Shown here: positions 823-53,860 of the stretch, one piece after another
Numbering within the stretch: position 1 is the stretch's first letter
Layout: every line of letters starts with the position of its first letter
DNA from: an uncultured Bdellovibrionales bacterium
Lineage (GTDB): Bacteria; Patescibacteriota; Minisyncoccia; Moranbacterales; UBA1568
Length of the DNA stretch: 64,000 nucleotides
Direction: 5' to 3'
Assembly: GCA_964612055.1 (NCBI GenBank)
Contig: CAZTBI010000003.1
Coordinates: forward strand, 40,268-104,267
Program-made: the position numbers and the translations under genes
Notes under the pieces: model-generated
The model's database searches: none
The model's input: only the letters and a program-made list of their open reading frames with translations
What the model was told of the DNA's origin: nothing

Positions 823-1734
823 TTACACTGCCAAAAAGATCTTCTCGAGAAGCAGTCTGGCGTTACTCTGTGTTGTTTTGAGCAGTCTCATTGTTTTCTC
901 CACTTCATCAAGAAGAGCGAAGAATCTCACTGTTCCTCTTTTTTCACTCACTAGAAGTGCCTGACGATGAAGTCCTGGAAGCCACCATTCCAAAAGCCGC
1001 ACCGTTCGTTCCGTATGCGATCCTAACTTTTCCGCCAAAGACAGCCGGTCGGCAAGAGGCAGAGTCGAAAGACGAAACAATTGCCCCAAAAGTTCTCGCT
1101 CAAGCGTGAAGGCTGCCGGATCATTCAAGGCCGAGAGTACCATCCCTGGTCGGCCCAAAGCAAAAAAGAAAGGTGCCACTTGGGAGAGTTCTTTTTCATC
1201 ATACAGTGAAGCAACGGCGTCAAAGAGGATTTTCTCTGGCACAAAATCAAAACGGACTCTTTTGACACGAGAAAGGACTGTCGAAAGCATGTTCCCCACT
1301 TCGTGAGTCAGGAGGATAATGACCGCCGTCGACTGCGGCTCTTCCAAAGTCTTCAAAAGGACATTCTGTGCCGTTTCCGAAAGCGTATGCGCATCCTCGA
1401 TAATGAGTACTCGAAAACCACCGGATACCGGAAAATGAGAAAGGAAGCCTAAACTTTCACGAACAGCTTCAGCAGAAATATTCCTCAACTTGGTCACGCC
1501 TCGCTTTGTTTCTACCAAGGGTCGCAAAATTTTGACATCAAAAGGGTGCGGCTTGTCCTCGCTTGGTTCGAAATCGGGCTCTTTGGCCAAAAGTGAAGCA
1601 AACTCCAGAGCACAAAGACTCTTTCCTATGCCGCGCGGCCCGGTAAAAAGATAAGCTTGAGCAATATTTCCCTGCCCCAAAGATGTCCGCAGCATCTTCC
1701 GTTCCTTGTGATGACCAATAATATCCATAACCAA
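823..1734 (-). CDS. holB: DNA polymerase III delta' subunit (AAA+ clamp-loader)
   Basis: Walker A motif FTGPRGIGKS, LKTLEEP motif, ~300 aa. Confidence 0.85.
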   Translation of the reverse strand: MVMDIIGHHKERKMLRTSLGQGNIAQAYLFTGPRGIGKSLCALEFASLLAKEPDFEPSEDKPHPFDVKILRPLVETKRGVTKLRNISAEAVRESLGFLSHFPVSGGFRVLIIEDAHTLSETAQNVLLKTLEEPQSTAVIILLTHEVGNMLSTVLSRVKRVRFDFVPEKILFDAVASLYDEKELSQVAPFFFALGRPGMVLSALNDPAAFTLERELLGQLFRLSTLPLADRLSLAEKLGSHTERTVRLLEWWLPGLHRQALLVSEKRGTVRFFALLDEVEKTMRLLKTTQSNARLLLEKIFLAV

Positions 1735-36802: not shown

Positions 36803-36979
36803 ATGAGCCGAACCTGCCAACTCACCGGCCGTGGAACGAAAACTGGGAATAAAATCAGCCATTCCAAGCGTCACAGTCGTCGCACTTTCAAGGTAAACGT
36901 GCAGACCAAGCGTCTCGGAGGCATGAAACTCCGTCTGGCCACCAAAACACTGCGCACTCTTGCCAAAGCAACTGCGTAG
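36803..36979 (+). CDS. rpmB: 50S ribosomal protein L28
   Basis: MSRTCQLTGRGTKTGNKISHSKRHSRRTF matches the L28 N-terminus; 58 aa from the internal ATG of track ORF 36740..36979. Confidence 0.85.
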   Translation: MSRTCQLTGRGTKTGNKISHSKRHSRRTFKVNVQTKRLGGMKLRLATKTLRTLAKATA

Positions 36980-37019: not shown

Positions 37020-37101
37020 GTTTTTTGTGACGCCCGATATATTTACCTGCCTACAGCAGGCTACAGCCCGTAAAATATAGGTGAGCGTAACGAAATTTGA
37101 G

Positions 37102-37134
37102 ACAAATGAAAAGAGGGAACCGTGAGATTCCCTC
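37102..37134 (-). terminator. rho-independent terminator of the small-protein cassette
   Basis: Minus strand GAGGGAA-tctcacgg-TTCCCTC followed by TTTTCATTT. Confidence 0.65.
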
Positions 37135-37158
37135 TGTATTGTTGCTGGCGTTGCCAGC

Positions 37159-37359
37159 TTAGAAGCCGTGTTGCTCCGGATGATCGAGCGAATGCTGCAG
37201 CGCCGGATTGGTGATGCCAGCATCATCGAGACCAAAGCGCTGATCGAACCGACTCAGCACAAGCTTCGTGTTCGCCGCAAGTTGCTCTGCCGTCAAACCG
37301 CTCTGCGGTTGCGGTAGTGGACCGTTTCCGAGGTCACCCCCGGGGTTTTCGTTTGCCAT
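37159..37359 (-). CDS. hypothetical acidic Pro/Gly-rich 66-aa protein (cassette gene 2)
   Basis: AAGGAG Shine-Dalgarno 6 nt before the ATG (MANENPGGDLGNGPLPQPQ...); GC-rich codons. Confidence 0.5.
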   Translation of the reverse strand: MANENPGGDLGNGPLPQPQSGLTAEQLAANTKLVLSRFDQRFGLDDAGITNPALQHSLDHPEQHGF

Positions 37360-37396
37360 GGCATACTCCTTGTTCAACTCGAACGGGGTGATTGGG

Positions 37397-37594
37397 TCAA
37401 GCGGTAGCAGCCGCTGCAGCCAACCGCTTCTTGAAAAAGATCATGACCAGATCGGACCGGTCTCCGTGAATCCGACGCTTGCACGAACCAGCGCCCATAG
37501 CATTCACGCACGCCTGGCCGCCTTCCACATGCAGGATGCACTTGGGATTGTCCCGGACACAGGACCAGCTTTGATCCTTCTCTTTGGCATTCAT
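37397..37594 (-). CDS. hypothetical basic 4-Cys 65-aa protein (cassette gene 1)
   Basis: AAGGAG Shine-Dalgarno 9 nt before the ATG; cysteines in SCVRDNPKC...ACVNAMGAGSC; C-terminal AAAAATA. Confidence 0.5.
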   Translation of the reverse strand: MNAKEKDQSWSCVRDNPKCILHVEGGQACVNAMGAGSCKRRIHGDRSDLVMIFFKKRLAAAAATA

Positions 37595-37721
37595 GATGAA
37601 ACTCTCCTTCTTGCTTTTGCTATTGAACCGTCAAAATGTCAAACAACCAAACGAAGAATGCACTTTGTGATGCATCCCCCTATTACCCTTCGTGCCAAAG
37701 CTTGTGACTTGGTACCCCGGC

Positions 37722-37750
37722 ATTATACGTTGCTTTCTCCACTTTGTCAA
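37722..37750 (-). promoter_or_regulatory. perfect-consensus sigma70 promoter of the small-protein cassette
   Basis: Minus strand TTGACA-17 nt-TATAAT followed by a ~110-nt structured leader. Confidence 0.7.
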
Positions 37751-37754
37751 GGGT

Positions 37755-37780
37755 ACAAAAAAGGCCTCTATGAGGCCATT
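37755..37780 (-). terminator. rho-independent terminator after ndk
   Basis: Minus strand GGCCTC-ata-GAGGCC followed by TTTTTTGT. Confidence 0.75.
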
Positions 37781-37816: not shown

Positions 37817-38422
37817 CTATTCGAGGATGCCATCCAAATTCACATCGTAGAGTACCTGTTCCTGTACCAGACGATAGGAAACGATATCTGAAGCATTGAA
37901 CCAAAGAGGAATCTCTCGTTCCGCTTCTTCTGGGCTATCAGAACAATGAACGAGATTACGTACGGCACGATTATCGAGACTAGAAAGCGCATAAGAATCA
38001 ACAGTCAGATCACCACGAATGGTTCCGACATCGGATGTTGTTGGTTCGGTTCCTCCAACTAACTTCTTTACAATCGCCACAGATTGGTTGCCCTCAATGA
38101 CAGCGGCCAGTACTGGACCGGAAGTAAAGAAATCAACATTTGACTGAATGATATCCTTCCCATATTCCATGGCTTCTTTTTCGATAGACAGACCGTGAGT
38201 CTTGCGGTCTTCAACAACACGTGTCCCCTTCTTCATGAACCATTCGTCGTCTTTGTTGTAATGCTTCCAGCATTGATCGGCCTTTGGCAACAGAAACTTC
38301 ACCGCTACAAACTTGAGTCCGGTACGCTCAATGCGAGTCATGACTTCACCAAGGAGTGAACGTTGAACACCGTCAGGCTTCACGATAACGAGGGTGCGCT
38401 CTTTTTTCGGATGAGTCTCCAT
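37817..38422 (-). CDS. ndk: nucleoside-diphosphate kinase (long form)
   Basis: ERTLVIVKPDGVQR and NLVHCSDSPEEAEREIPLWF; 201 aa. Confidence 0.8.
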   Translation of the reverse strand: METHPKKERTLVIVKPDGVQRSLLGEVMTRIERTGLKFVAVKFLLPKADQCWKHYNKDDEWFMKKGTRVVEDRKTHGLSIEKEAMEYGKDIIQSNVDFFTSGPVLAAVIEGNQSVAIVKKLVGGTEPTTSDVGTIRGDLTVDSYALSSLDNRAVRNLVHCSDSPEEAEREIPLWFNASDIVSYRLVQEQVLYDVNLDGILE

Positions 38423-52018: not shown

Positions 52019-53860
52019 TTACTTCTTGTCAGATGCCCCAGCCGTCGCAAACGCTTCGCCGGTCAGTGCGGTCTTGGCCTCACCGATCGAATCAGGCGTC
52101 AACTTGTCGAAGTCGAAGCCGAACTTGGCAGCGAACTGCTTCAGCACGTCTCCGTACCCCATGCTCTTGGCCTTCTCGATGAGACCGAAGATGGTCTCGT
52201 TCGGCATCGCAGCGAACTGCTTCAGCACATTGCCGTTGCCAGCCTGGCCGTTGCCGCCCATATCGATGATGCGCACCTCGTCGATGTTGCCGAGACCTTG
52301 GCCGATGGCTTCTGCAACCGGTACCATGATCTCCTTGGCAACTGCGCCAACGGCCGTGAGGACCGGAGGCAGTGCCTCGAGGATCATGAGGATTCGGCCA
52401 GTATCGTCGAGCTTCGCCAGCGCCTGTGCCCGTGCATCGATGCCTTCGGCTTCGGCCATGAGCCTGGCCTTGGTGACATCGGCTTCGGCCATGCCTTGAG
52501 CACGCGTACCGGTTGCACGCGCTTCGAGGTTGGCCTGCTCGACAGCTGCTGCTGCGAGGCCCTTGGCACGCTCACCGGCGGCTTCGGCTTCGGCTTCGGC
52601 CTGAGTGGCCTGTGCCAACCGCGTACGACCATCCGCTTCTGCTTGCTGCTTGGCGAGCTGGCCAGCTGCTTCTTTCTCAGCCGTGACGCGGAGTGCTTCG
52701 CCGCGTGCAGTAGCGGCATTCTGTTCAGCGTTGGCTGCCGCAACCGCTGCTTCGCCCTTCTTGGTAGCTTCGATAACCGCACCTTCGCCGCGCTTGGTGG
52801 CTTCAGCAACTGCTGCATCACCCTTCTTGAGGGCTTCGATGACCGCTGCTTCGCCCTTCTTGTTGGCCTGGACGATCACGGTGGCATTCATCTCAGCTTC
52901 GGTCCGCTGCCTGATCACATCTTGCAATGCGATTTGGGCTTGAGCCTCAGCTTGCTCGGCGGCGACGCCAGCAACCTTGAGCTTCTGGCCTTCTTCAGTT
53001 GCAGCGATCTCGGCAACGATCGGCACACGAGCCTTCTGGGCCCCGACCTTGGCTGCGTTGTCGGCGATCTGCATGTCACGGGCGCGTTCGGCATCCGAGA
53101 TAGCAGTGGTCGCTTCAGCCTTGGCCACTTCGCCTGCACGACGAGCGGCAGCAGACTGGACATCGCCACGACGCAGCGCCTCGGCTTCACCGATGCGTGC
53201 TTCCGCGACGACTTCCGCTGTCCGCTGCTTGCCGAGTGCTTCGATGTAACCTTCGGTATCAGTGACTTCCTGGATGGTCAGCAGGTCGATGGTCAGACCA
53301 AGCTTGGCCAAACTGCCATTGCCGATCTCAAGGGCACTCGTCTCGAACTGCTGACGATCACCGATGAGCTCTTCGACGGTCAACGTGGCGATGATGCCGC
53401 GCAGCACGCCGTCGAGGTTCTGCTTGGCCGTGTTACTGATGAAGGATTCGTCCTTGCCGAGGAAACGCTCGATCGCCAGAGCGAGCGAAGCGTCATCGGA
53501 GAGGATCTTGGTATTGCCAATGGCCTTCACACGAACCTGGACCCTGTTCTTGCTGGGAGCGACGACGTTCAGCTCCAAAGGGATGGTGTTGAGCGAAAGT
53601 GTCTGCACATCCTCCATGATGGGGATGCGCAGGAAGCCGCCGCCTTTCACCACTCGGTAGCCACGTTCAATTGCCTTCCCCTCATCACTGACCGACTTCC
53701 TCCTGCGGCCGAAGACGACCGCGACGACGTTGGGCGCGACCTTGGTGTACAGCTTCGAAACGGTGCGTAGCGTAGCGAGAACCACGCCGACGAGAACCAG
53801 AACGATCGCTGGAATGGTAAGCGCCGAAAAGACGCTATTGATTGTTTCCCACATGGTCAA
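52019..53860 (-). CDS. flotillin-like SPFH/band-7 protein (FloT-type, long Ala/Glu-rich helical tail)
   Basis: 613 aa. N-terminal TM helix. SPFH domain: YRVVKGGGFLRIPIMEDVQTLSLNTIPLELNV. About 250 aa of EA-repeat coiled coil follow. GC-rich locus. Confidence 0.8.
   Translation of the reverse strand: MTMWETINSVFSALTIPAIVLVLVGVVLATLRTVSKLYTKVAPNVVAVVFGRRRKSVSDEGKAIERGYRVVKGGGFLRIPIMEDVQTLSLNTIPLELNVVAPSKNRVQVRVKAIGNTKILSDDASLALAIERFLGKDESFISNTAKQNLDGVLRGIIATLTVEELIGDRQQFETSALEIGNGSLAKLGLTIDLLTIQEVTDTEGYIEALGKQRTAEVVAEARIGEAEALRRGDVQSAAARRAGEVAKAEATTAISDAERARDMQIADNAAKVGAQKARVPIVAEIAATEEGQKLKVAGVAAEQAEAQAQIALQDVIRQRTEAEMNATVIVQANKKGEAAVIEALKKGDAAVAEATKRGEGAVIEATKKGEAAVAAANAEQNAATARGEALRVTAEKEAAGQLAKQQAEADGRTRLAQATQAEAEAEAAGERAKGLAAAAVEQANLEARATGTRAQGMAEADVTKARLMAEAEGIDARAQALAKLDDTGRILMILEALPPVLTAVGAVAKEIMVPVAEAIGQGLGNIDEVRIIDMGGNGQAGNGNVLKQFAAMPNETIFGLIEKAKSMGYGDVLKQFAAKFGFDFDKLTPDSIGEAKTALTGEAFATAGASDKK

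What the first reader, a model, noticed from the sequence alone, without database searches (positions are those of the whole stretch)
37102..37780. Self-contained GC-rich two-gene small-protein cassette between rpmB and ndk
Between the rpmB terminator and the ndk terminator lies a ~680-bp unit that looks foreign to its surroundings. Three things set it apart. (1) Its GC content is visibly higher than the flanks, for example ...GCGCCGGATTGGTGATGCCAGCATCATCGAGACC.... (2) It has a perfect-consensus TTGACA-17-TATAAT promoter (~37722-37750), a ~110-nt structured leader and its own terminator (~37102-37134). (3) Both ORFs carry canonical AAGGAG Shine-Dalgarno sites, whereas many housekeeping genes in this window are leaderless or lack a Shine-Dalgarno. 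Gene 1 (65 aa) is basic with four Cys (C12, C19, C29, C38) and a poly-Ala C-terminus. Gene 2 (66 aa) is acidic and Pro/Gly-rich. Neither matches a family I recognise. A basic Cys-rich plus acidic pairing under one promoter suggests a toxin/antitoxin-like, bacteriocin/immunity-like or small zinc-binding regulator pair. This may be a horizontally acquired micro-island and is the most plausible novel element in the window.
Basis: partly seen in the sequence, partly recalled or inferred. Interest (0 to 1): 0.7.

Follow-up and report, generated by a model that had tools for sequence, protein, structure and literature searches.

The report
Swappable small-protein operon in Moranbacteria
This is a real, probably strongly expressed two-gene operon for two tiny proteins of unknown family, in an uncultured Moranbacteria (CPR) genome; related genomes swap its coding parts like cartridges while keeping the expression signals, but what it does is still unknown.

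Summary
On the minus strand between ndk and rpmB there is a perfect TTGACA-17-TATAAT promoter, the only one in the 64 kb. It is followed by a ~120-nt leader, two AAGGAG-preceded ORFs (65 and 66 aa) and a terminator. GC is moderately raised.

Both ORFs are protein-coding (dN/dS 0.1-0.6 in frame). Neither matches Pfam, NCBIfam, PADLOC, PHROGs, PDB, Rfam, phage or plasmid data.

The host is a Candidatus Moranbacteria genome. The cassette is lineage-specific, not foreign. Relatives carry versions at the same site, upstream of a tRNA-Pro(GGG) gene that this species has lost. Their cassette ORFs are also GC-richer than their surroundings.

- Gene 1 belongs to a tiny family with four invariant Cys.
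- Gene 2 is acidic and, on a low-confidence model, mostly unstructured. It has a conserved ~15-aa N-terminus, an NPN motif and an otherwise hypervariable body.
- Within one species, gene 2 is replaced by unalignable alleles between ~100% identical flanks. Alleles are shared across species.
- The first gene is swapped in the same way.
- The two genes often occur without each other, which argues against a toxin/antitoxin or bacteriocin/immunity pair.

Function is unresolved. My best guess is a cytoplasmic Cys4 metal-binding protein plus a disordered partner, evolving under diversifying selection.

The parts
37763..37777 (-). ndk terminator hairpin. This is the upstream boundary of the cassette.
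   Evidence: GGCCTCATAGAGGCC followed by TTTTTTG on the minus strand. It is 94-100% identical in sister contigs.
37722..37750 (-). Sigma-70-type promoter, TTGACA-17-TATAAT. It is a perfect consensus match.
   Evidence: 12/12. It is the only perfect site in the 64 kb. The same promoter (TTGAC[AT]-N16-17-TATAAT) precedes the cassette in 17 of the 71 species-representative relatives, including L017-L024, L026, L027, L034, L045, L053, L061, L065 and L069.
37692..37716 (-). 5'-terminal stem-loop of the transcript, with a CACAA loop. The transcription start near 37715 is inferred.
   Evidence: the homologous position in L017, L019-L024, L027 and L053 folds into a 7-10 bp stem. The stem sequences differ and the loop is CACAA or a close variant. 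The hairpin is present whichever gene follows it.
37653..37680 (-). Leader hairpin (11 bp) followed by a U-rich stretch. It looks like a terminator and may be an attenuator or a stability element.
   Evidence: There is a compensatory A-U to G-C change in L001 and L016. More distant relatives have a different hairpin at the same relative position.
37397..37594 (-). Gene 1. It encodes a 65-aa basic protein with four invariant Cys (type 1A) and an Ala-rich C-terminus. The SD AAGGAG is at 37609-37604.
   Evidence: - ORF and sequence.
- dN/dS is 0.24-0.35 in frame, with no excess of synonymous change (pN >= pS) in five of the six off-frame comparisons.
- C12, C19, C29, C38 and G36 are invariant in 15 relatives.
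- Only 4-6 homologues exist in 1.8-5.8 billion proteins.
37159..37359 (-). Gene 2. It encodes a 66-aa acidic protein that a low-confidence model leaves mostly unstructured. The N-terminus (MANENPGGDLGNG.L) is conserved, followed by one predicted helix (residues 24-42) and an NPN motif. The body is hypervariable. The SD AAGGAG is at 37371-37366.
   Evidence: - ORF and alleles.
- ORF length is kept at 64-68 aa across alleles that cannot be aligned.
- dN/dS is 0.12-0.62 within allele classes.
- The family alignment has N51 invariant and L10 and P52 nearly so.
- The AF2 model has pLDDT 55 with a single helix.
37144..37158 (-). 3' UTR stem-loop A (GCTGGC-AAC-GCCAGC), directly after the stop codon.
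   Evidence: In most relatives the per-locus folds place a 5-7 bp hairpin with a 3-4 nt loop at this position, with stem sequences that differ compensatorily. A position-blind scan found a hairpin of at least 5 WC pairs in 18 of 21 loci (15 distinct 5' stem arms), against 14% of shuffled windows; a few of those 18 are other hairpins.
37112..37135 (-). Intrinsic terminator hairpin B plus a T-run, followed by the conserved block TTTTCATTTGTCTCAAATTT.
   Evidence: The sequence is conserved even in relatives whose coding parts are unrelated, at 87-94% over 32-34 nt.
37028..37071 (-). Degenerate remnant of a tRNA-Pro(GGG) gene. In relatives this gene follows the cassette.
   Evidence: ARAGORN finds tRNA-Pro(GGG) at this position in 13 of the 18 loci scanned, including L001, L015-L024, L048 and L063. 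It finds none in the window, L006 or L010. The alignment shows that only the first ~10 nt are retained.

Best explanation
**What it is (shown).** This is a lineage-specific, probably strongly transcribed bicistronic operon for two small proteins. It sits in a conserved 'expression slot' between ndk and tRNA-Pro(GGG)/rpmB of Candidatus Moranbacteria.
- The slot has a consensus promoter, a 5' stem-loop with a CACAA loop, a leader hairpin, a 3' stem-loop and a terminator.
- These signals stay constant while the ORFs between them are exchanged as modules.
- The first position holds one of at least three unrelated or distantly related small genes. The window has type 1A, a basic protein with four invariant Cys.
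- The second position holds members of an acidic family. They share a conserved ~15-residue N-terminus and an NPN motif, and their bodies are hypervariable and mosaic.

**How the variation arises (inferred from the pattern).** Alleles are replaced by homologous recombination, with breakpoints in the conserved segments. This happens both within a species and between Moranbacteria species.

**What it does (inferred, roughly 30% for this part).**
- Gene 1 is a cytoplasmic protein that binds a metal, most likely Zn, through its four Cys.
- Gene 2 is a disordered acidic protein that docks onto partners through its N-terminal motif and its amphipathic helix.
- The variable part is kept diverse by diversifying or frequency-dependent selection from a fast-evolving partner, such as a phage, a host cell or kin.
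- It is not a toxin/antitoxin pair.
For: **Anatomy:**

**Protein-coding**
- Gene 1 has dN/dS 0.24-0.35 in frame, and pN >= pS in five of the six off-frame comparisons.
- Gene 2 has dN/dS 0.12-0.62 within allele classes.
- The gene 2 ORF stays 64-68 aa long across alleles rich in indels.
- The conserved N-terminus of gene 2 shows mostly synonymous change.
- The four Cys are invariant.

**Lineage and site**
- ndk is 62-89% identical to the Moranbacteria and other Patescibacteria MAGs that make up nearly all of the 71 loci.
- The cassette is always just downstream of ndk.
- tRNA-Pro(GGG) follows it in relatives.
- The site is empty (141-308 nt) in 8 relatives.

**Module swapping**
- Window against L010: flanks, gene 1 and the first 14 codons of gene 2 are 95-100% identical, but the rest of gene 2 is 50% identical.
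- L013 carries a third allele behind an identical gene 1.
- L021 against L022: promoter and leader are identical, the first gene is 4-Cys in one and an unrelated gene in the other, and the sequences rejoin at the gene-2 SD.

**Exchange between species**
- Gene 2 synonymous divergence is lower than that of the adjacent ndk: window-L018 0.35 against 0.73, L021-L023 0.15 against 0.44, L039-L049 0.25 against 0.45.

**Not foreign**
- Cassette ORFs are GC-richer than their own locus in 27 of 30 relatives.
- There are no phage, plasmid or viral relatives.

**Gene 2 apparently unstructured:** a low-confidence AF2 model (pLDDT 55) has one helix at residues 24-42.
Against: - No experiment or homology ties either protein to a function.
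- Both AF2 models are low confidence, with pLDDT about 55.
- The Cys spacing (x6, x9, x8) is not a known metal-binding signature. Disulfides or an Fe-S cluster are not excluded.
- Diversifying selection is inferred from allele replacement and allele sharing across species. No dN/dS value above 1 was found.
- Relaxed constraint combined with a recombination hot spot could produce much of the same pattern.
- The conserved N-terminus with a variable body also fits a leader/core secreted peptide.
- Expression strength is inferred from consensus sequences only.
- The gene-2 family was never searched exhaustively. Only a word-indexed search was run.
Confidence: 0.55

Rival explanations
1. Gene 2 is the precursor of an exported peptide, such as a bacteriocin, RiPP or pheromone. 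The conserved N-terminal ~15 residues would act as a leader and the hypervariable remainder as the core. The within-species alleles would then be 'pherotypes' or competition types, as with ComX, ComC or AgrD.
For: - The N-terminus (M-x-N/D-E/Q-N-x-E/G-G-D/N-L-G-x-G-E/P-L) is conserved across alleles whose bodies are unrelated.
- Unalignable alleles sit between identical flanks within one species.
- Alleles are shared across species.
- The promoter is a perfect consensus match.
- This N-terminal motif is found only on second-slot proteins in all the DNA fetched.
Against: - There is no double-glycine consensus (LSxxELxxIxGG) and no signal peptide.
- No maturase, C39-peptidase ABC transporter, radical-SAM enzyme or sensor kinase lies in the locus in any relative. 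The neighbours are ndk, tRNA-Pro, rpmB and an M50 peptidase, whether or not the cassette is present.
- The 'core' itself carries family-wide motifs (LTxEQ helix, NPN, EHGF) and is under purifying selection. That looks more like a folded or binding protein than a free core peptide.
- There are no NCBIfam or Pfam precursor hits.
Confidence: 0.17
2. The two genes form a toxin/antitoxin-like or toxin/immunity pair. The basic Cys-rich gene 1 would be neutralised by the acidic gene 2.
For: - The genes are adjacent, co-oriented, small and of opposite charge, and they share one promoter.
- The locus is accessory, patchy and hypervariable.
- Gene 1 relatives have Ala-rich tails that resemble degrons, for example ...KLAA in L024.
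Against: - The genes are not an obligate pair. The 4-Cys gene occurs alone in 8 species-representative loci and gene 2 occurs without it in 12. They are together in only 4 of 71.
- Neither protein hits any toxin, antitoxin or defence model.
- Gene 2 has no DNA-binding domain and is mostly unstructured in a low-confidence model.
- Fixed synteny across a class-level clade is unusual for mobile toxin/antitoxin modules.
Confidence: 0.1
3. These are young, weakly constrained small ORFs in a recombination-prone intergenic hot spot next to a tRNA gene. On this view the variability reflects relaxed constraint and frequent recombination, not selection for diversity, and the proteins have little or no specific function.
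For: - The site is empty in 8 relatives and holds unrelated inserts in others, such as hydrogenase genes and a LuxI-like gene.
- dN/dS is 10-20 times higher than for ndk.
- The families are tiny and lineage-restricted.
- The structure predictions have low confidence.
Against: - dN/dS is clearly below 1 for both genes.
- The four Cys and one Gly are invariant across about 20% sequence identity.
- Motifs are conserved across genera.
- ORF length and expression signals are preserved through every swap.
- The dedicated consensus promoter and conserved UTR hairpins argue for maintained expression.
Confidence: 0.13
4. The region is a structured non-coding RNA, or a recently imported foreign island, and the ORFs are incidental.
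For: - GC is above the flanks.
- Local hairpins are present.
- A tRNA gene lies next to the site in relatives.
Against: - There are no Rfam or ARAGORN hits.
- The leader and the whole transcript fold no better than shuffled sequence (z = -0.13 and -0.89).
- The substitution pattern is frame-specific.
- There is no integrase, no flanking repeats, and no template repeat or reverse transcriptase.
- Homologues occur only in Moranbacteria at the same site.
- High GC is shared by the families in relatives.
Confidence: 0.03

Closest known systems
Polymorphic pheromone or bacteriocin loci of Firmicutes (Bacillus comQXP pherotypes, Streptococcus comC/blp, Staphylococcus agrBDC hypervariable region). 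This comparison rests on my own knowledge, not on a tool result.
   Same: - Small precursor-sized genes with a conserved N-terminal part and a hypervariable remainder.
- Unalignable alleles between near-identical flanks within one species.
- The same allele classes shared across species through recombination.
   Different: - No cognate processing enzyme, exporter or receptor kinase is linked to the locus.
- There is no recognised leader motif.
- The variable protein keeps family-wide internal motifs.
- The host is a CPR bacterium and both proteins are orphans.
Type II toxin-antitoxin modules with the toxin gene first (for example higBA and hicAB). This comparison rests on my own knowledge.
   Same: Two small adjacent genes of opposite charge under one promoter, in an accessory and patchy locus.
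   Different: - The two genes occur independently in most relatives.
- There are no family hits.
- The acidic partner is apparently unstructured and has no DNA-binding domain.
- The chromosomal position is fixed.
Small Cys4 zinc-binding proteins (zinc ribbons, YacG-like proteins, small CPxCG zinc-finger proteins). This comparison rests on my own knowledge.
   Same: About 65 aa, basic, with four invariant Cys.
   Different: - The Cys residues are spaced x6, x9 and x8 (x5, x8, x8-9 in type 1C), not as two CxxC knuckles.
- There are no Pfam or PDB sequence hits.
- The predicted fold is helical and low confidence.
tRNA-adjacent genomic islets or integration hot spots.
   Same: - The site is variable.
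- A tRNA-Pro gene lies immediately next to it in relatives.
- Presence, absence and content vary, and other cargo is inserted nearby in some genomes.
   Different: - There is no integrase, att repeats or other mobility genes.
- The cargo comes only from the same bacterial class.
- The swap boundaries are the expression signals, not an attachment site.

Membership tests
Type II toxin-antitoxin system | Two adjacent, co-transcribed small genes | tested here: met
   One promoter, two ORFs 37 nt apart, one terminator.
Type II toxin-antitoxin system | Toxin and antitoxin always occur together | tested here: not met
   Of 71 species-representative loci, 12 have the 4-Cys gene, 16 have the gene-2 family, and only 4 have both.
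Type II toxin-antitoxin system | Either protein belongs to a known toxin, antitoxin or defence family | tested here: not met
   Pfam, NCBIfam, PADLOC and PHROGs gave nothing significant.
Type II toxin-antitoxin system | Gene 1 is toxic and gene 2 neutralises it | not testable with these tools
   This needs an expression assay.
Double-glycine-leader bacteriocin or peptide pheromone | N-terminal leader with the consensus LSxxELxxIxGG, ending in GG, GA or GS | tested here: not met
   The N-terminus is MANENPGGDLGNG(P/E)L. Only a Gly at -1 and a Leu at -4 could be matched.
Double-glycine-leader bacteriocin or peptide pheromone | Linked C39-peptidase ABC exporter, immunity gene or sensor kinase | tested here: not met
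   The neighbours are ndk, the ComEC/MBL genes, tRNA-Pro, rpmB and an M50 peptidase in all loci. Only about +/-4-6 kb was examined, plus the 64-kb window by motif only.
RiPP precursor | Conserved leader plus hypervariable core | tested here: inconclusive
   The pattern is present. However, the 'core' carries conserved motifs and is under purifying selection.
RiPP precursor | Adjacent maturase (radical SAM, LanM, YcaO or similar) | tested here: not met
   None is present in any locus. There are no precursor-family hits in NCBIfam.
Classical Cys4 zinc finger or zinc ribbon | Four conserved metal-ligand residues | tested here: met
   C12, C19, C29 and C38 are invariant in 15 sequences.
Classical Cys4 zinc finger or zinc ribbon | Two CxxC (or CxxH) knuckles, or a match to a zinc-finger profile | tested here: not met
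   The spacing is x6, x9, x8. There are no Pfam or PDB hits.
Classical Cys4 zinc finger or zinc ribbon | The protein actually binds a metal | not testable with these tools
   This needs ICP-MS or spectroscopy on purified protein.
Diversity-generating retroelement target | A template repeat and a reverse transcriptase nearby, with variation limited to adenine-templated sites | tested here: not met
   The window has no second copy of the variable region and no long ORF with a YxDD motif. The alleles differ by indels and cannot be aligned.
Structured non-coding RNA | An Rfam match, or folding energy or covariation beyond chance across the unit | tested here: not met
   There are no Rfam hits. The z-scores are -0.13 for the leader and -0.89 for the transcript. 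Only local UTR hairpins are conserved.
Horizontally acquired genomic island | Atypical composition specific to this genome, mobility genes, and relatives in unrelated taxa or mobile elements | tested here: not met
   The GC excess is shared by the families in 27 of 30 relatives. There are no mobility genes. There are no relatives in phage, plasmid or viral data.
Horizontally acquired genomic island | Patchy presence at a tRNA-adjacent hot spot, with evidence of lateral exchange | tested here: met
   Empty and filled sites both occur. tRNA-Pro is adjacent in relatives. Gene 2 synonymous divergence is lower than that of ndk between species. The exchange is within Moranbacteria only.

The most novel reading that the evidence does not exclude
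Moranbacteria may carry a previously undescribed kind of hypervariable locus: a fixed, probably high-output 'expression slot' with a consensus promoter, a 5' CACAA stem-loop, a 3' stem-loop and a terminator. Unrelated small-protein genes would be swapped into its two positions by recombination within and between species. The second-position protein (conserved N-terminal handle, variable body) would serve as a polymorphic recognition, signalling or anti-phage determinant of these symbiotic, ultra-small bacteria.
Probability: 0.3. Interest if true: 0.8.

Novelty: new variant of a known kind. Interest (0 to 1): 0.55.

Why it matters
CPR/Patescibacteria are uncultured and have reduced genomes. They are thought to live attached to other cells, and almost nothing is known about how they recognise partners, compete, or resist phages.

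This locus spends a consensus promoter on two orphan small proteins. It also keeps many unalignable alleles in circulation within and between species. That makes it a concrete candidate for such an interaction determinant.

It offers three things:
- two new small-protein families, one with an unusual invariant Cys4 pattern;
- a clear example of modular ORF swapping bounded by expression signals;
- a simple marker locus (ndk to tRNA-Pro) for studying strain-level diversity in Moranbacteria metagenomes.

If the proteins turn out to have no specific role, the locus would still illustrate how small genes turn over at a tRNA-adjacent hot spot.

Tried and rejected
**Known non-coding RNA or tmRNA.** I suspected this because of the high GC, the 'ANEN...' start of gene 2 and the Ala-rich end of gene 1. 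Rfam at gathering and at E-value thresholds, and ARAGORN, found nothing. The folding z-scores are not significant. Rejected.

**Family assignment.**
- Pfam, NCBIfam, PADLOC, PHROGs and PDB sequence profiles gave nothing for the window proteins or for the family alignments.
- Sequence searches of 5.8 billion and 1.84 billion proteins found only 4-6 relatives of gene 1 and 4 of gene 2.

**Structure.** AF2 with the shallow alignments available gave pLDDT of about 55 for both proteins. I did not run fold searches, because low-confidence models give meaningless matches.

**Searches that returned nothing.**
- Scans of genome contigs and metagenome contigs with gene 1, and a DNA pattern for the gene-2 N-terminus in metagenome and viral contigs.
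- Phage and plasmid BLAST and viral protein scans. Two of the viral scans could not run because the alignments were too diverse.

**RNA consensus folding.** Whole-leader and 3'-module RNAalifold runs failed because MAFFT did not put the hairpins in register. I used per-sequence folds and a hairpin scan instead.

**Other ideas tested and rejected.**
- *The conserved gene-2 N-terminus reflects an RNA hairpin that sequesters the SD.* The putative partner segment is absent in L016, and the changes in the N-terminal codons are mostly synonymous.
- *The tail of 4-Cys type 1C is a fused gene-2 domain.* hhalign gave a probability of 0.2%.
- *A DGR diversifies gene 2.* No template repeat or reverse transcriptase was found.
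- *Weak self-similarity to window 891-946.* This is a chance match.

**Literature.** Searches found no description of this locus.
Full report
**1. What is in the sequence**

All the features sit on the minus strand between ndk (38422..37817) and the convergent rpmB (36803..36979, plus strand), in this order:
- the ndk terminator (37777-37763);
- a perfect TTGACA-17-TATAAT promoter (37750-37722);
- a ~120-nt leader;
- gene 1 (37594..37397, 65 aa), with AAGGAG 9 nt upstream of its start;
- a 37-nt spacer with a second AAGGAG;
- gene 2 (37359..37159, 66 aa);
- a small stem-loop directly after the stop codon (37158-37144);
- an intrinsic terminator (37135-37112).

The promoter is the only perfect consensus match in the 64 kb.

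GC is raised but not extreme. The two ORFs are at 0.57-0.58 against a window mean of 0.487. The peak is in the top 2.5% of 300-bp windows. GC3 is 0.61-0.65 against 0.51 +/- 0.05. A flotillin gene at 52-53.9 kb is GC-richer.

About half of the long ORFs in the window have no SD-like motif, so the two canonical SDs stand out somewhat.

The leader is not globally structured (z = -0.13). It does contain a 5' stem-loop and an 11-bp hairpin with a U-rich tail (37680-37653).

**2. Coding or RNA**

Rfam and ARAGORN find nothing, and the whole transcript folds like shuffled sequence (z = -0.89).

Gene 1 shows frame-specific constraint. Between three variants, dN/dS is 0.24-0.35 in frame, and pN is at or above pS in five of the six off-frame comparisons.

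Gene 2 has dN/dS of 0.12-0.62 within allele classes. Its ORF stays 64-68 aa long across alleles that differ by many indels. Its conserved N-terminal codons differ mainly at synonymous sites.

Both are therefore real protein-coding genes.

**3. Host and distribution**

The ndk protein is 62-89% identical to ndk in 63 of the 71 loci, nearly all from metagenome-assembled genomes named Candidatus Moranbacteria/Moraniibacteriota, related Patescibacteria, or mislabelled bins. The host is therefore a CPR bacterium.

Gene 1 has only 4-6 relatives among 1.8-5.8 billion proteins. Gene 2 had 4 in a word-indexed search.

Every contig that carries either gene has it immediately downstream of ndk.

I then looked downstream of ndk in the 71 species-representative genomes:
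- The site is empty (141-308 nt) in 8 genomes.
- In many others it holds one or two small genes. A perfect or near-perfect promoter of the same type was detected in front of them in 17 of the 71 loci.
- Iterative HMM searches place a 4-Cys gene there in 12 genomes, a gene-2-family member in 16, and both in 4.
- A tRNA-Pro(GGG) gene follows the cassette in relatives.
- In the window's species that tRNA is reduced to a remnant at about 37028-37071.

**4. The proteins**

*Gene 1.* It is basic. C12, C19, C29, C38 and G36 are invariant across 15 sequences that are otherwise only 18-74% identical.
- There are two subtypes. Type 1A has W-x-C-x2-[DN]-N-P-x-C...E-x-G-x2-C...G-x-C-x-R. Type 1C has C...C...C-R-x2-V-x2-G-x-C-x-P-P with a different tail.
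- The Cys spacing (x6, x9, x8) is not that of CxxC zinc knuckles.
- No Pfam, NCBIfam, PHROGs or PDB profile matches.
- AF2 gives three short helices at pLDDT 56.

*Gene 2.* It is acidic.
- The family shares an N-terminal E/G-G-[DNE]-L-[GS]-x-G-E-L motif, an amphipathic helix (LTxEQ...L..V..R), an almost invariant N-P-N-[ILM] and often EHGF.
- AF2, at pLDDT 55, predicts a single helix (residues 24-42) with no other regular structure.
- There are no family or PDB hits.

**5. Module swapping**

This is the most striking result.

*Within the window's species.* Gene 1 is 100% identical at the protein level in 12 contigs, yet three unrelated gene-2 bodies occur.
- Against L010, everything from ndk through codon 14 of gene 2 is 98-100% identical, and the downstream region is 95-96% identical.
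- The ~155 nt in between are 50% identical, which is random level.
- The L013 allele resembles genes found in the second slot of other genera (L036, L058).

*In a sister lineage (L001).* ndk is 94% identical and rpmB 96%. The gene 1 core is 74%, the gene 1 end plus intergenic region is 93%, and the gene 2 body is 51%.

*Between L021 and L022.* Promoter and leader are identical. The first gene is a 4-Cys protein in one and an unrelated Cys-free protein ending in GDSRRP in the other. The sequences rejoin at the gene-2 SD.

*Between species.* Gene 2 is less diverged at synonymous sites than the adjacent ndk:
- window-L018: 0.35 against 0.73;
- L021-L023: 0.15 against 0.44;
- L039-L049: 0.25 against 0.45.

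Alleles therefore move between Moranbacteria species, or are maintained across them.

*What stays constant is the expression machinery:*
- the promoter;
- a 5' stem-loop with a CACAA loop and co-varying stems;
- a 3' stem-loop with co-varying stems; a hairpin of at least 5 WC pairs was found in 18 of 21 loci, against 14% of shuffles;
- the terminator and its TTTTCATTT tail, which are 87-94% identical even where the ORFs are unrelated.

**6. Is it foreign?**

- The families occur only in Moranbacteria, at this one site.
- There are no phage, plasmid or viral relatives.
- There are no mobility genes and no DGR components.
- Cassette ORFs are GC-richer than their own locus in 27 of 30 relatives, by a mean of +4.4 points. 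The composition is therefore a family trait. It may come from Gly/Ala/Pro/Arg-rich proteins, and biased gene conversion at a recombination hot spot is another possible cause (inference).

**7. What it most likely does**

*Shown:* a dedicated operon with consensus expression signals, encoding two constrained orphan small proteins, with modular allele replacement.

*Inferred:*
- Gene 1 binds a metal through its four invariant Cys.
- Gene 2 is a disordered adaptor-like protein with a conserved N-terminal handle and a variable body.
- The variation is maintained by selection from a fast-evolving partner such as a phage, a host cell or kin.

I put about 30% on this functional reading and 55% on the overall statement.

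The toxin/antitoxin or bacteriocin/immunity reading is weakened because the two genes usually occur without each other.

A leader/core exported peptide, analogous to pherotype loci, remains the most interesting rival at about 17%. It fits the conserved N-terminus and the unalignable within-species alleles. It lacks any linked maturase, exporter or receptor, and the 'core' has conserved motifs.

Relaxed constraint at a hot spot (about 13%) cannot be excluded without population data.

**8. Comparison with known systems and novelty**

The phenomenon resembles polymorphic pheromone and bacteriocin loci and tRNA-adjacent islets. The membership tests for toxin/antitoxin systems, double-glycine peptides, RiPPs, classical zinc fingers, DGR targets, structured RNAs and foreign islands each fail on at least one defining feature (see the membership table).

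I found no description of this locus in the literature. One paper reports quorum-sensing homologues in CPR, including LuxI-like proteins (PMC7567580). That is relevant only to a neighbouring gene seen in three relatives.

I rate this a new variant of a known kind (a hypervariable small-gene locus), built from two new protein families. Interest is 0.55: the anatomy and evolutionary behaviour are unusual and well supported, but the function is unknown.

Noticed in passing
window 37028-37071 (minus strand); L001:1443-1514, L016:711-782, L018:5335-5406 and others: A tRNA-Pro(GGG) gene follows the cassette in 13 of the 18 loci scanned. In the window's species (window, L006, L010) only a degenerate remnant is left, with the first ~10 nt recognisable, and ARAGORN finds no tRNA in the whole 64 kb.
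   Followed up: partly
L019:5470-6102, L027:5813-6433, L053:5455-6102: In three relatives a ~210-aa gene sits after tRNA-Pro. Its own promoter is a perfect TTGACA-17-TATAAT in L019 and L027 and TTGACA-17-TACAAT in L053. One of the three was scanned and weakly matches the Pfam autoinducer synthase family (PF00765, E = 0.014, below threshold). All three end in ...AA. LuxI-like genes in CPR have been reported before (PMC7567580).
   Followed up: partly
L026:5953-7524, L077:5553-7313: In two relatives, large inserts that look like hydrogenase genes lie between the cassette/tRNA-Pro and rpmB: an Fe-hydrogenase-like protein in one, and NiFe large-subunit-like and HypC-like proteins in the other. I judged this by eye from the sequences. 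The whole ndk-rpmB interval appears to be a general insertion hot spot.
   Followed up: no
L019:4303-4524, L020:4852-5034, L022:4847-5017, L053:4780-4989; window 37374-37541 (alternative frame): A third kind of first-slot gene has no Cys and ends in GDSR(R/L)P. An out-of-frame ORF inside window gene 1 also reads ...DSRRPV.... The DNA of these regions does not align, so I treated this as coincidence, but it is not explained.
   Followed up: partly
window 37653-37680 (minus strand): The leader hairpin is followed by a U-rich stretch and scores as terminator-like. It could end a ~75-nt RNA or act as an attenuator. Relatives have a different hairpin at the same relative position.
   Followed up: partly
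window 37100-37111 and downstream; the same block in L017-L024, L039, L049 and others: The block TTTTCATTTG(T/C)C(T)AAAATTT(T/C)GTTACGCTCA, between the cassette terminator and tRNA-Pro, is more conserved than any coding part of the cassette. It may be the tRNA promoter or an UP element.
   Followed up: no
gene 1 family C-termini (window 37397-37425; L024:4837-5055): Type 1A proteins end in Ala-rich tails: ...RLAAAAATA, ...FAAAASAT and ...REKLAA. These resemble ssrA-type C-terminal degrons and may mark the protein as short-lived. This is pure inference.
   Followed up: no
window 52022-53860 (minus strand): The GC-richest stretch of the window (0.63-0.66) is an ordinary 613-aa SPFH/flotillin gene with a long Ala/Lys/Arg-rich region (Pfam Band_7, 1e-20). 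It shows that the high GC of the cassette is not unique.
   Followed up: yes
whole window: By a lenient test, 31 of 67 long non-overlapping ORFs have no SD-like motif before any plausible start codon. There are no tRNA or rRNA genes in the 64 kb.
   Followed up: partly
L068:2195-2737, L069:4960-5532: More distant Parcubacteria carry a different small Cys-rich gene downstream of ndk (MCGDGG...CDGC...) followed by a 111-119-aa gene. 'Small Cys-rich gene after ndk' may therefore be a wider theme.
   Followed up: no
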